Assembly (NCBI GenBank): GCA_038087875.1
Contig: CM075989.1
Span: forward strand, 6,324,001-6,388,000
Direction: 5' to 3'
Source: Malacoraja senta
Taxonomy: Eukaryota
DNA length: 64,000 nt
The notes under the pieces: generated by a model
Told to the model about the DNA's origin: nothing
Seen by the model: only the letters and a program-made list of their open reading frames with translations
The model's database searches: none
Shown: positions 38,801 to 41,800 of the stretch, one piece after another
Position numbering within the stretch: position 1 is the stretch's first letter
Layout: every line of letters begins with the position of its first letter
Position numbers and translations under genes: made by a program

Positions 38801-41800
38801 AGACATTATCAAGGCTTCTCCGATGGTGAATGTGATTATATTTTGATCTCTACACTACCAGACTCACGAACAGATTCTTCCCCTGTGAATGGTCCTTCAC
38901 TAAGCTGGGATAACTGTTCGATTCACCTCTATTCCACTGTGGACATTGGACTTTGTCTAAGCCACTGATGCACTACCTTGCGGGTACAGTATTCTGCACT
39001 CTGTATCTTCCCCATTGCTCTACCCAATGTGCTTTTTTAAAAAAATTTTTTTTATTTTTATTAGAAGTACAATTGTATACAATCATATTTTCATAATGCA
39101 TATTATGTACAGCTTCTTATTTTTATAATAAAGGAGAAAAAGAAAAAGAAGTTAGATAATGAAAAATAGAAACATGTGAGATATATAGTGTGTGAAAAAG
39201 GAAAATAGAGAGTGAAAGAAGAAAGTTAAAGAATAGAAAATAGAAAAAAAGAAAATAAAAGAAGAAAAAGAAAGAGAAAGAAAAAAAGAAGTAAGGAGAT
39301 CTTATTTATGATCTTGACCATCCCTCGCCCAGTCACGAGTTCACTTTTACAATTGTTTTGCACCATATGATTCCAAAAAGACGACAAATGGAGACCAACT
39401 CGTTGTGAATTGGTCAAATTTATCTATTAGGCGGAATCGCATTTACTCAAGATGTGCGGTGTCCAACATACTTGCAATCCACATTTTAAGCGTTGGTATT
39501 GGTGTATTTTTCCAAAATTTCAATATTAATTTTTTAGCTATTATTAAACCATAATTAAAAAATAATTTTTGAGATGGATTCAGTTTATTCCCATCTTCCA
39601 TTACCCCAAATATAATCAATTCATTATTAGGTTCCATTTTTATCTTAAATAATTTTGTGAATATTTCAAAAATATCACTCCAAAATCTATGAAGTTACCC
39701 AATGTGCTTAAAGGGCCTGTCCCACTTACGCGACTTTTTCGGCGACTGCCGGCACCGGTCGTCACTACCGGTCGTTGCAGGTCGCCGAAAATTGGCAACA
39801 TGTTGAAAATCCAGCGGCAACCAGAACAAGGTACGACTCTTTGGGCGACTACTCACGACCATACAGGCTTCACCCCGCGACATGTCGCCTGTATGGTCGC
39901 GAGTCGTCTCCTCCGTCACCCAAAGAGTCGTAGCGTCTTTCTGGTCGCCGCTGAATTTTCAAACATGTTGAAAATTTTAGGCGACCTATGACGGGTGCCG
40001 GAAGTCACCCAAAAACTTGCGTAAGTGGGACAGGCCCTTCCTTAAGTTGGACCTGATGGTATTTCTGTATGGTATAATTTGATCTAATTGGATCGCAGGC
40101 AAGACAAAGCTTATCACTGTACCTTGGTACACATGACAAGTATAAACCAACACTACGTAAGCTTCTCTTGATTATATTTATGTAAAGTATTAATTTAACA
40201 AATTTTTAAGAAAAATAACCCTAAACCGTACAACACCGATCTCCTCCAGAGAAGAGATTTTTAAATCCTCTTTGTGATTGTGGATTCTTTGGTGGGTGAA
40301 AAATACTTTTATCTTCTGAATCGCAATGAGGGTTTAAAACGTTCCCATTTATTGACGGTGGAATATCCCCTCTGGGAATTGATGGAGCTTACACCACACA
40401 AGCTGGGCATTCAGGTCAGCCAAACAGCATTGGGGGTGGCACGGTGGCGCAGCGGTAGAGTTGCTGCCTTACAGCGCCAGAGACCCGGGATCGATCCTGG
40501 CTACGGGTGCTGTCTGTACGGAGCTTGTACGTTCTCCCCGTGGCCTGCGTGGGTTTTCTCCGGGTGCTCCGGTTTACTCCCACACTACAAAGACGTACAG
40601 GTTTGTCGATTGATTGGCTTTGGTAAAAAAATAGTAAATTGTCTCTAGTGCGTAGGATAGTGTCAATGTGCGGGGATCGTCGGTCGGCACGGACTTGGTG
40701 GGGCCTGTTTCTGCGCTGTATCTCTAAACTAAACTATCCATCCGTTGGGAGGATTCCCGTATGTAACGTGATCTCAGAAATGAAGTACTTCCATTCATTT
40801 TCCAATGTTGGTGATCATTCCCATGGACCCCATGTGCTTCTTTCTCCTCATCCCAACCCGTCAACCAGGATTGTGGCCGATCTCCCAGCTCAACTCCGCA
40901 CCCCTGCCCATTCCCCACGTGTCCTCCAACTCCCGCATCCCAGGAGTTCTCTCTACACTCACCTCCTTCTCCTGTTTAATTCCGGCCTTCTTGATCATGT
41001 CTTTCTTCAGCAGCCTGATCAGGTAATCGGCCCGTGACTGCAGGTGCTTGGCCTGAGGCTTGTGATCTGGATTATCAGGGAGAATCTGGAGGGGAAGAGA
41101 CATGGTCGATGTTCAGATCAGGCTCAGCCCGAAGCATGGGACAGAGACAAAGTCACAGACAAACAACGCAAGAAAGGTTCCTATTACACCGTGCGCTGCA
41201 TGCTCTGTACCTCTGGGTGCTTTCACTAGAGGCTTCAGCTTTTGTGACACGGCCTGTGTTTCAAAGTCTGGGTATAGCTCCCTGGCAAATGGACCAAGAT
41301 GTTAGTGGCTGTTTAACGGAGGCACTTCATTATGTTTCAAATAGCTGGTGATTCCCAGTGAAGCCCTGCAGTGGCGGCCAGCACTAAACGGATACGTTCC
41401 TTGGTGTGAACCTCACTGATGTTGGGATCTACCCTCATCACAGTCAGTGCCCACACACATGTATGTGAACACACACAGACACACGCACAGACACGCACAC
41501 ACACACACATTCGCACACTCGCGGACACACACACACGCAGACAGACACACGCAGACACACACACAGACACACACATGCAGACACACACAAGCAGACACAC
41601 ACATGCAGACAGACACGCAAGCACACACACACGCACACACAAACACGCAGTCACACGCAGATAGACACACACACACACACAGGCAGGCACACACATACCC
41701 AGGCACAGACACACACACAACCACACACAGACACGCACACAGGCAGACACAGAAAATTGCACAAGCGGACACATGCACACATATCCACGCAACCCCCCGC

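What the first reader, a model, noticed from the sequence alone, without database searches (positions are those of the whole stretch)
41190..41310. Candidate CHD2 poison exon with consensus branch point and in-frame stop
Seen: on the minus strand between the ...LTNK and ILPD... exons, a non-repeat block reads CCACTAAC (branch A at 41302, 20 nt from the AG)-atcttggtccatttgccAG|GGAGCTATACCCAGACTTTGA...CCCAGAG|GTACAG-AGCATG. The 71-nt exon (41211-41281) shifts frame and has TGA as its 7th codon, far upstream of the last junction, so inclusion predicts NMD. A GCATG (RBFOX-type) motif lies just downstream of the donor. Recalled, needs verifying: human CHD2, a haploinsufficient epilepsy gene, has an NMD exon reported in intron 30. 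Counting back from the last exon, this is the equivalent intron. Inference: AS-NMD dosage control of CHD2 may date back to the jawed-vertebrate ancestor.
Basis: partly seen in the sequence, partly recalled or inferred. Interest (0 to 1): 0.75.

Follow-up and report, generated by a model that had tools for sequence, protein, structure and literature searches.

The report
Candidate CHD2 poison exon in skate
In a skate's CHD2 gene (a chromatin remodeller whose human version causes epilepsy when one copy is lost), the intron that holds a known human 'poison' exon contains a 71-base stretch with splice-site-like signals and an early stop codon that would likely send the message to decay if spliced in, but its use in RNA and its shared ancestry with the human exon remain unproven.

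Summary
The sequence observation is exact: CACTAAC (branch A 41302), AG|71 nt|GT, and TGA as 7th codon, 1,297 nt before the last junction. The gene is skate CHD2. The recalled human exon is real and lies in the same intron: published human primers map to the two flanking exons and give the same 169-bp skip product. The human exon is 113/124 nt and ends 237 nt before the next exon (skate: 71 and 125).

Use is not shown. Three RNA-like contig sets give only the skip junction, which is weak evidence because contigs drop rare forms.

Conservation is only hinted at. A sauropsid CHD2 intron has a look-alike donor 115 nt before the exon (11 of 16 positions; matched nulls p about 0.002-0.06 nearby, 0.01-0.2 over the whole intron, not significant in longer ungapped windows or free alignment). 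The exon body does not align, the GCATG motif is not kept, and a ray-finned-fish intron (205 nt) has no cassette. No other cartilaginous-fish intron could be obtained.

Verdict: a plausible new member of a known kind, about 40% likely orthologous. The scan's index showed no earlier CHD2 finding.

The parts
42657..42807 (-). Upstream constitutive CHD2 exon (...LTNK; 151 nt; phase-0 donor AAG|GTAGGC); equivalent of human exon 30
   Evidence: tblastn of skate and shark CHD2, borders; human forward primer maps here, 12 of 20 letters
41469..41751 (-). About 280-nt degenerate (UG)n tract on the sense strand, about 190-470 nt upstream of the candidate acceptor; role untested
   Evidence: 35 TG per 100 nt against 10-18 in the other 16 introns; L058 has at most 16
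41365..41385 (-). Alternative upstream acceptor (CTGCAG|G, exon start 41365; 155-nt exon, stop at codon 12); weaker one at 41383
   Evidence: PWM 6.5 and -2.3
41301..41307 (-). Branch-point-like CACTAAC, branch A at 41302
   Evidence: CACTAAC occurs 3 times on the minus strand of the window
41282..41300 (-). Acceptor region atcttggtccatttgccAG, no AG between branch A and acceptor
   Evidence: PWM 3.6 bits, weak
41211..41281 (-). Candidate 71-nt frameshifting cassette exon
   Evidence: not seen in RNA contigs
41261..41263 (-). TGA, 7th codon on inclusion; 1,297 nt upstream of the last junction
41193..41217 (-). Donor block CCCAGAG|GTACAG-6nt-CAGCGC, resembling L058 2378-2403; holds the GCATG at 41203-41199, which L058 does not share
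41154..41209 (-). Predicted hairpin whose 5' arm is the donor's +2..+19
   Evidence: z -2.26, 4 of 200 shuffles in the 66-nt window; z -1.32 in the 86-nt window
40963..41085 (-). Downstream constitutive exon (ILPD...; 123 nt); equivalent of human exon 31
   Evidence: human reverse primer maps here, 14 of 20 letters

Best explanation
The skate CHD2 intron equivalent to human intron 30 holds a 71-nt stretch with a consensus branch point, splice-site-like ends and an in-frame stop, which is likely a rarely included poison exon and probably descends from the same ancestral element as the human CHD2 NMD exon. Inferred mechanism: U2 binding at CACTAAC defines a weak acceptor. A middling donor, predicted to be partly paired in a hairpin, keeps inclusion low. 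When the exon is included, translation stops six codons in, inside the HTH part of the DNA-binding domain. That stop lies 1,297 nt before the last junction, so NMD would remove the mRNA and trim CHD2 dosage. Shown: the sequence anatomy, the stop position, the intron orthology. Inferred: inclusion, NMD, regulation, common ancestry.
For: Same intron as the human event. Primers of bioRxiv 10.64898/2026.01.19.700316 translate to VEDDSR and RADYLL, map to the two flanking exons and predict 169 bp in skate, as printed for human. The human events are 124 and 113 nt with one shared donor (PMC7347940 supplement); both they and the candidate sit in the last 361 nt of the intron.

It is the only CTAAC-type pseudo-exon in 31.6 kb of introns. 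Intron 30 is poor in interspersed repeats: 14% against 50% overall, second lowest of 17.

Sauropsid CHD2 locus L058 has a donor-like GT 115 nt before the exon. It is the best match to the skate donor among 1,705 GT sites in 4 of 11 ungapped windows and among 1,063 in 1 of 3 gapped windows. Reciprocally the skate site ranks within the top 2-13 of 7,474. Identity at +3..+18 is 11 of 16, against 4-9 for 4 orthologous constitutive donors. A null of 443 donor-like skate sites gives p 0.002-0.06 in 5 of 5 gapped windows for the last 330 nt.

L058 also has a 17-nt T-rich tract followed by AGs 10 nt apart (human acceptors: 11 apart); the 146- and 156-nt exons these would give both hold stops. Both donors' +1..+18 are predicted more paired (0.82-0.93) than all 17 constitutive skate donors (at most 0.73).
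Against: No inclusion seen: 3 of 3 RNA-like runs show the direct exon-to-exon join and 0 of 3 have a contig on the candidate (contigs drop rare forms). None of 56 junction-spanning proteins, 30, or 133 of 150 parsed ends in the predicted peptide.

Free local alignment of skate against L058 is not significant: p 0.12-0.29 in 6 of 6 tests. Longer ungapped windows give p 0.26-0.61, and whole-intron gapped nulls 0.03-0.2. The windows were chosen after seeing the match.

The exon body and the CTAAC branch point do not align with L058; sizes differ (71; 146/156 predicted; 113/124 human), as does the downstream intron (125; 115; 237). L058's tandem acceptors score poorly on the skate matrix (0.4 and -8.0), and L058 has a higher-scoring pseudo-exon elsewhere (1674-1727), so which L058 element matches the human exon is not known.

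Ray-finned-fish locus L006 has a 205-nt intron with no cassette. Hairpin z-scores are modest (skate -1.3 to -2.3; L058 -0.6 to -1.3) and the L058 fold in the skate register costs 11 kcal/mol. Human inclusion-type NMD events are on average less conserved than other events.
Confidence: 0.4

Rival explanations
1. A chance pseudo-exon in unconstrained intron sequence, picked out because the reader knew where to look; it is not spliced in at a meaningful rate.
For: Pseudo-exons without a branch-point demand occur about once per kb, and in 6 of 17 introns near the next exon. Weak acceptor. Only skip joins in 3 of 3 RNA-like runs. Free alignment to L058 not significant. No cassette in L006.
Against: CTAAC plus both sites is unique in 31.6 kb and unlikely in these 365 nt (p 0.0015-0.0075, optimistic). 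The donor likeness falls in the orthologous intron at a similar distance. The intron is repeat-poor.
Confidence: 0.33
2. A real poison exon that arose independently in cartilaginous fishes in the same intron (convergent), not homologous to the human exon.
For: Different length, acceptor architecture and downstream distance from human and L058. Absent in L006. Exon body unalignable.
Against: Donor-side likeness to L058, p about 0.002-0.06 locally, and a similar distance to the next exon.
Confidence: 0.15
3. The branch point and AG act as an alternative acceptor of the ILPD exon with the 125-nt mini-intron retained (exon lengthened by 196 nt), because the internal donor is middling and predicted to be paired; the same TGA would still trigger NMD.
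For: The branch point is the strongest signal. The donor has 5 of 9 consensus matches and pairing probability 0.87-0.90.
Against: The donor block is the part that resembles L058. The human events are annotated as exon inclusion. No contig extends into the intron (weak).
Confidence: 0.12

Closest known systems
Human CHD2 NMD-inclusion exon, chr15:92998138/92998149-92998261 (Lim et al. 2020, PMC7347940, supplementary file 5 rows seen; bioRxiv 10.64898/2026.01.19.700316, passages seen: PSI 21-49%, used as the cycloheximide read-out)
   Same: Same gene and intron (primers in the same flanking exons, 169-bp skip product, 123-nt downstream exon); near the 3' end of the intron; frameshifting length; premature stop far from the last junction in the skate case.
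   Different: 124/113 nt with two acceptors 11 nt apart, against 71 nt (possibly 155). Ends 237 nt before the next exon, against 125. Inclusion and NMD sensitivity are reported for human and not shown for skate.
Poison exons of dosage-sensitive neurodevelopmental genes and chromatin regulators (SCN1A exon 20N, EZH2; named in passages)
   Same: Predicted logic: a cassette exon with a stop lowers productive mRNA by NMD.
   Different: No long, highly conserved block was detected between skate and the sauropsid locus, only about 26 nt around the donor. No regulator was identified.
Chaserr lncRNA control of CHD2 (passages)
   Same: Another layer that limits CHD2 dosage.
   Different: Acts in cis upstream of the gene, not by splicing; it lies outside this window.

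Membership tests
CHD2 orthologue | Closest relatives are CHD2, not CHD1; exon structure matches | tested here: met
   99% to Leucoraja and 98% to Amblyraja CHD2, 65% to goose CHD1 over 91 aa; tree; 18 exons give an open frame
Poison (AS-NMD inclusion) exon | Branch point, acceptor and donor flank the segment | tested here: met
   acceptor weak, donor middling, matrices from 17-18 sites
Poison (AS-NMD inclusion) exon | Inclusion gives a stop more than 50-55 nt upstream of the last junction (rule recalled) | tested here: met
   1,297 nt
Poison (AS-NMD inclusion) exon | The exon is spliced into RNA | tested here: inconclusive
   0 of 3 RNA-like contig sets; 4 of 24 listed runs laid; contigs cannot show absence
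Poison (AS-NMD inclusion) exon | The included form is stabilised by NMD inhibition | not testable with these tools
   needs cycloheximide or UPF1 knockdown data
Orthologue of the human CHD2 intron-30 NMD exon | Lies in the orthologous intron | tested here: met
Orthologue of the human CHD2 intron-30 NMD exon | Alignable sequence or splice sites across intermediate taxa | tested here: inconclusive
   Donor-side likeness to 1 of 2 bony-vertebrate CHD2 introns (L058 yes, L006 no); p depends on window; no human or other chondrichthyan intron available
RBFOX-regulated exon | Conserved (U)GCAUG downstream of the donor | tested here: not met
   GCATG present without the leading T, 34 copies in sense introns; L058 reads differently at those positions. 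Only one comparison locus.

The most novel reading that the evidence does not exclude
AS-NMD dosage control of CHD2 dates from the jawed-vertebrate ancestor. What was kept is not the exon body but a short donor block (CCCAG..AG|GTRCAG-N6-CAGCGC), probably folded into a hairpin that masks the 5' splice site, while acceptors turned over; some ray-finned fishes lost it. That block would mark the control point for splice-switching therapy in CHD2 haploinsufficiency.
Probability: 0.25. Interest if true: 0.65.

Novelty: new member of a known kind. Interest (0 to 1): 0.4.

Why it matters
CHD2 is haploinsufficient in people, and its intron-30 NMD exon is an abundant event proposed as a splice-switching target. 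If a skate uses a homologous exon, the event is an old dosage control rather than splicing noise, which is unusual since such human events are on average poorly conserved. The few kept bases would then point to the regulatory element. If it is not used, this is an ordinary pseudo-exon. The mechanism class itself is well known.

Tried and rejected
- **Own genome:** none held.
- **Sequencing runs:** no RNA holder on record was listed; 18 RNA-guess runs hold 0.11-0.13 of the words and 6 other runs 0.35-1.00. Of 24 runs, 4 were laid on 40760-41450. The DNA-type run of the relative (X21) laid nothing although it holds 0.41 of the words; the tool says its filter can drop contigs, so no conservation measure came of it. 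The stretch left out the upstream exon and the UG tract.
- **Proteins ending in the predicted peptide:** none. A search for genomic ORFs that run from the intron into the ILPD exon found none.
- **Metagenome scan:** 59 loci, of which only 2 were identified as vertebrate CHD2. Blastn of the skate block against all 59 gave nothing better than E 0.19. More of L058's contig could not be fetched, so the null uses skate donor-like sites, not other orthologous intron pairs.
- **Circular test:** the pattern searches were built from the two sequences and are not counted as evidence.
- **Faulty tree:** the tree had two rows in the wrong frame and is superseded.
- **Structure:** folding of the 331-nt region is unremarkable (z 0.05). 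Rfam matches lie outside the candidate and below gathering scores.
- **RBFOX motif:** rejected as evidence.
- **TDP-43/UG link:** the one passage read does not concern this exon, and L058 has no such tract.
- **Literature:** Yan et al. 2015 was not held; no coordinates for the mouse Chd2 event were seen in the rows shown (16 of 171 places); bioRxiv supplements were closed and may hold the human event's details.

Full report
OBSERVATION. On the minus strand, CACTAAC lies at 41307-41301 with the branch A at 41302. No AG intervenes before the AG at 41283-41282. The 71-nt segment 41281-41211 ends in CCCAGAG|GTACAG. The upstream exon (42807-42657) ends in phase 0, so inclusion reads GAIPRL and then TGA (41263-41261). 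With 18 exons placed by tblastn and splice dinucleotides, that stop is 1,297 nt upstream of the last junction and removes 516 residues. It falls inside the HTH part of the DNA-binding region (PF23588 at 1304-1386 of P0004; junction after residue 1358). The block is not an interspersed repeat. Intron 30 is 14% repeat-covered against 50% for all 17 introns (second lowest), with 383 nt of unique sequence between the UG tract and the next exon; the other introns have 30-292 nt of unique sequence before the next exon.

GENE AND ORGANISM. The two flanking exons are 99% identical to Leucoraja CHD2, 98% to Amblyraja, 92% to Mobula and 65% to goose CHD1. The window is therefore a skate CHD2. Counting back from the last exon as 39 (human exon number recalled), the flanks are exons 30 and 31.

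IS IT MORE THAN CHANCE? With matrices from the window's own 17 donors and 18 acceptors, the candidate's acceptor is weak (3.6 bits; 2 of 18 real ones are lower) and its donor middling (6.4). Demanding CTAAC 18-40 nt upstream and both scores at the candidate's level, it is the only hit in 31,562 nt of sense introns, with none antisense and 0.27 expected. The chance in the shuffled last 365 nt of the intron is 0.0015. With YTRAY there are 2 sense and 2 antisense hits, and p is 0.0075. The thresholds were set on the candidate, so these values flatter it. Without a branch point, 33 pseudo-exon donors occur, and 6 of 17 introns have one within 260 nt of the next exon. The branch point is thus the only distinctive signal. 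A second acceptor at 41365 scores 6.5 and gives a 155-nt exon with a stop at codon 12, so the 5' border is not certain. GCATG occurs 34 times in the sense introns.

THE HUMAN EXON. Supplementary file 5 of PMC7347940 (three CHD2 rows seen; none in the main text) lists two exon-inclusion NMD events, chr15:92998138-92998261 and 92998149-92998261, that is 124 and 113 nt. bioRxiv 10.64898/2026.01.19.700316 (passages only) reports a CHD2 NMD inclusion event at PSI 21-49% and gives primers. They translate to VEDDSR and RADYLL, map to the skate's flanking exons and predict 169 bp, the skip size printed for human. L058 also gives 169 once its intron is taken as 1,322 nt (one search printed 170 with an intron one base short). 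The paper prints the NMD bands as 192 and 181 bp. These differ by 11, like the two listed events, but 169+124 and 169+113 are 293 and 282, so I infer a misprint.

Human geometry comes from two papers. c.3937 lies at hg19 93541780 and c.4009 at 93543742 (PMC4407192, Table 2 passage). R1313 is codon 18 of the exon by comparison with a bat protein. A circRNA starts at hg38 93000512 (PMC7359566, passages), which I take as c.4009; I found it by searching for the value predicted from a recalled offset of 543,230. Together these put the human exon 31 start at 92998499 and the downstream intron at 237 nt. So the recalled fact is right and the intron is orthologous, but sizes differ.

RNA EVIDENCE. No run on record as RNA was listed. 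Of 24 listed runs I laid 4 on 40760-41450 at 80% likeness. All three RNA-like runs cover only the ILPD exon and continue directly into the LTNK exon; none has a contig on the candidate. The DNA-type run laid nothing. Contigs drop rare forms and NMD targets are rare, so this neither supports nor refutes. No protein ends in the predicted peptide: 56 of 62 span the junction, 30 more were read, and 133 of 150 were parsed, most of those being genomic read-through.

CONSERVATION. A metagenome scan with an exon-31 alignment gave 59 loci. Two are vertebrate CHD2 by identity and a quick tree: L058 groups with lizards and snakes among the rows given (no bird CHD2 was in the set), and L006 with ray-finned fishes. 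L002 is 99% identical to goose CHD1; L001 looks like a fish CHD1 with a truncated intron (not placed in the tree).

L006's intron is 205 nt with no cassette, and L002's 987-nt intron has none at the thresholds used. L058's 1,322-nt intron has CCCAGAAG|GTGCAG-6nt-CAGCGC 115 nt before the exon, against CCCAGAG|GTACAG-6nt-CAGCGC at 125 nt in skate.

In favour of homology: this GT is the top match among 1,705 GT sites in 4 of 11 ungapped windows, and top, 7th and 17th of about 1,060 in three gapped windows. Reciprocally the skate site is among the top 2-13 of 7,474. With 443 donor-like skate sites as null queries, p is 0.002-0.007 in three short ungapped windows and 0.002-0.06 in five gapped windows for the last 330 nt.

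Against: two longer ungapped windows give 0.27 and 0.56; the whole intron gives 0.009-0.61; free local alignment gives p 0.12-0.29; and the windows were chosen after I saw the match. The exon body and CTAAC do not align, and GCATG is not kept.

L058 has a 17-nt T-rich tract with AGs 10 nt apart, 261-271 nt before the exon, which recalls the human acceptors 11 nt apart, and both resulting exons carry stops. These acceptors score poorly on the skate matrix, however, and L058 holds a higher-scoring 54-nt pseudo-exon at 1674-1727. The link from L058 to the human exon is therefore an inference from geometry. No other chondrichthyan intron and no human sequence could be examined.

STRUCTURE. In both species the donor's +1..+18 is predicted to be paired (0.82-0.83 skate, 0.87-0.93 L058), more than any of 17 constitutive donors (at most 0.73). 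Shuffle z-scores are -2.26 and -1.32 for skate, and -1.31 and -0.61 for L058. The partners differ in register, and forcing L058 into the skate register costs 11 kcal/mol. This is a lead only.

MECHANISM AND RIVALS. Most likely (0.40): a low-inclusion poison exon homologous to the human one, with a strong branch point, weak acceptor and partly masked donor, lowering CHD2 mRNA by NMD. Rivals: chance pseudo-exon (0.33), independently arisen poison exon (0.15), alternative acceptor with a retained mini-intron and the same stop (0.12). About two in three, then, that some unproductive splicing occurs here.

NOVELTY. The class and the human event are known. Ten literature searches listed no paper on conservation of this exon outside mammals, but none used shark or skate terms, most subscription papers are not held, Yan et al. 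2015 could not be read, and bioRxiv supplements were closed. Other papers seen as passages (10.1101/2022.01.04.474998, PMC6889285 with a supplement search, PMC4268817, PMC10048575 with supplement rows, PMC13343711, PMC4216919, PMC12096787) did not identify the exon. The scan's own index had no CHD2 or look-alike finding.

VERDICT. Observation confirmed, interpretation partly supported, new member of a known kind if it proves real; interest 0.4.

Noticed in passing
window 38367-38236 (-): In-frame skipping of the 132-nt exon 32: one contig of run X14 joins the ILPD exon to the next-but-one exon, and Leucoraja/Amblyraja isoforms P0002, P0003 and P0019 lack it.
   Followed up: partly
L058 1674-1727 (+): A second, higher-scoring pseudo-exon in the sauropsid intron 30 (acceptor 13.1, donor 9.4; 54 nt, TAA as 4th codon), 773 nt before the next exon.
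   Followed up: partly
proteins P0135, P0142, P0143, P0177, P0181, P0237: Six of the genomic read-through ORFs of fish-like CHD2 continue with A (five with AN) instead of V after the exon-30 equivalent, which suggests a GC donor for this intron in some fishes.
   Followed up: no
proteins P0089, P0120: Snake-like CHD2 models run from the exon-30 equivalent straight past the ILP exon (exon skipping or annotation gap).
   Followed up: no
window 41469-41751: About 280-nt sense-strand UG tract, by far the most TG-dense stretch of the 17 introns, upstream of the candidate; absent from L058.
   Followed up: partly
window 41012-41032 and 41104-41124: 21-nt inverted repeat (76%) that could pair the ILPD exon with its own branch-point region; the region as a whole folds no better than shuffles.
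   Followed up: partly
window 42255-42433: 88-nt inverted pair of an interspersed repeat in intron 30 forming a long hairpin; gives sub-threshold Rfam miRNA matches.
   Followed up: partly
window 46250-44964 and 25015-24458 (-): Intronic open frames that look like decayed retrotransposon reverse-transcriptase and endonuclease pieces (labels from recall, not tested).
   Followed up: no
window 28528-28649: 22-nt tandem repeat, 5.5 copies, 93% matches, in intron 37.
   Followed up: no
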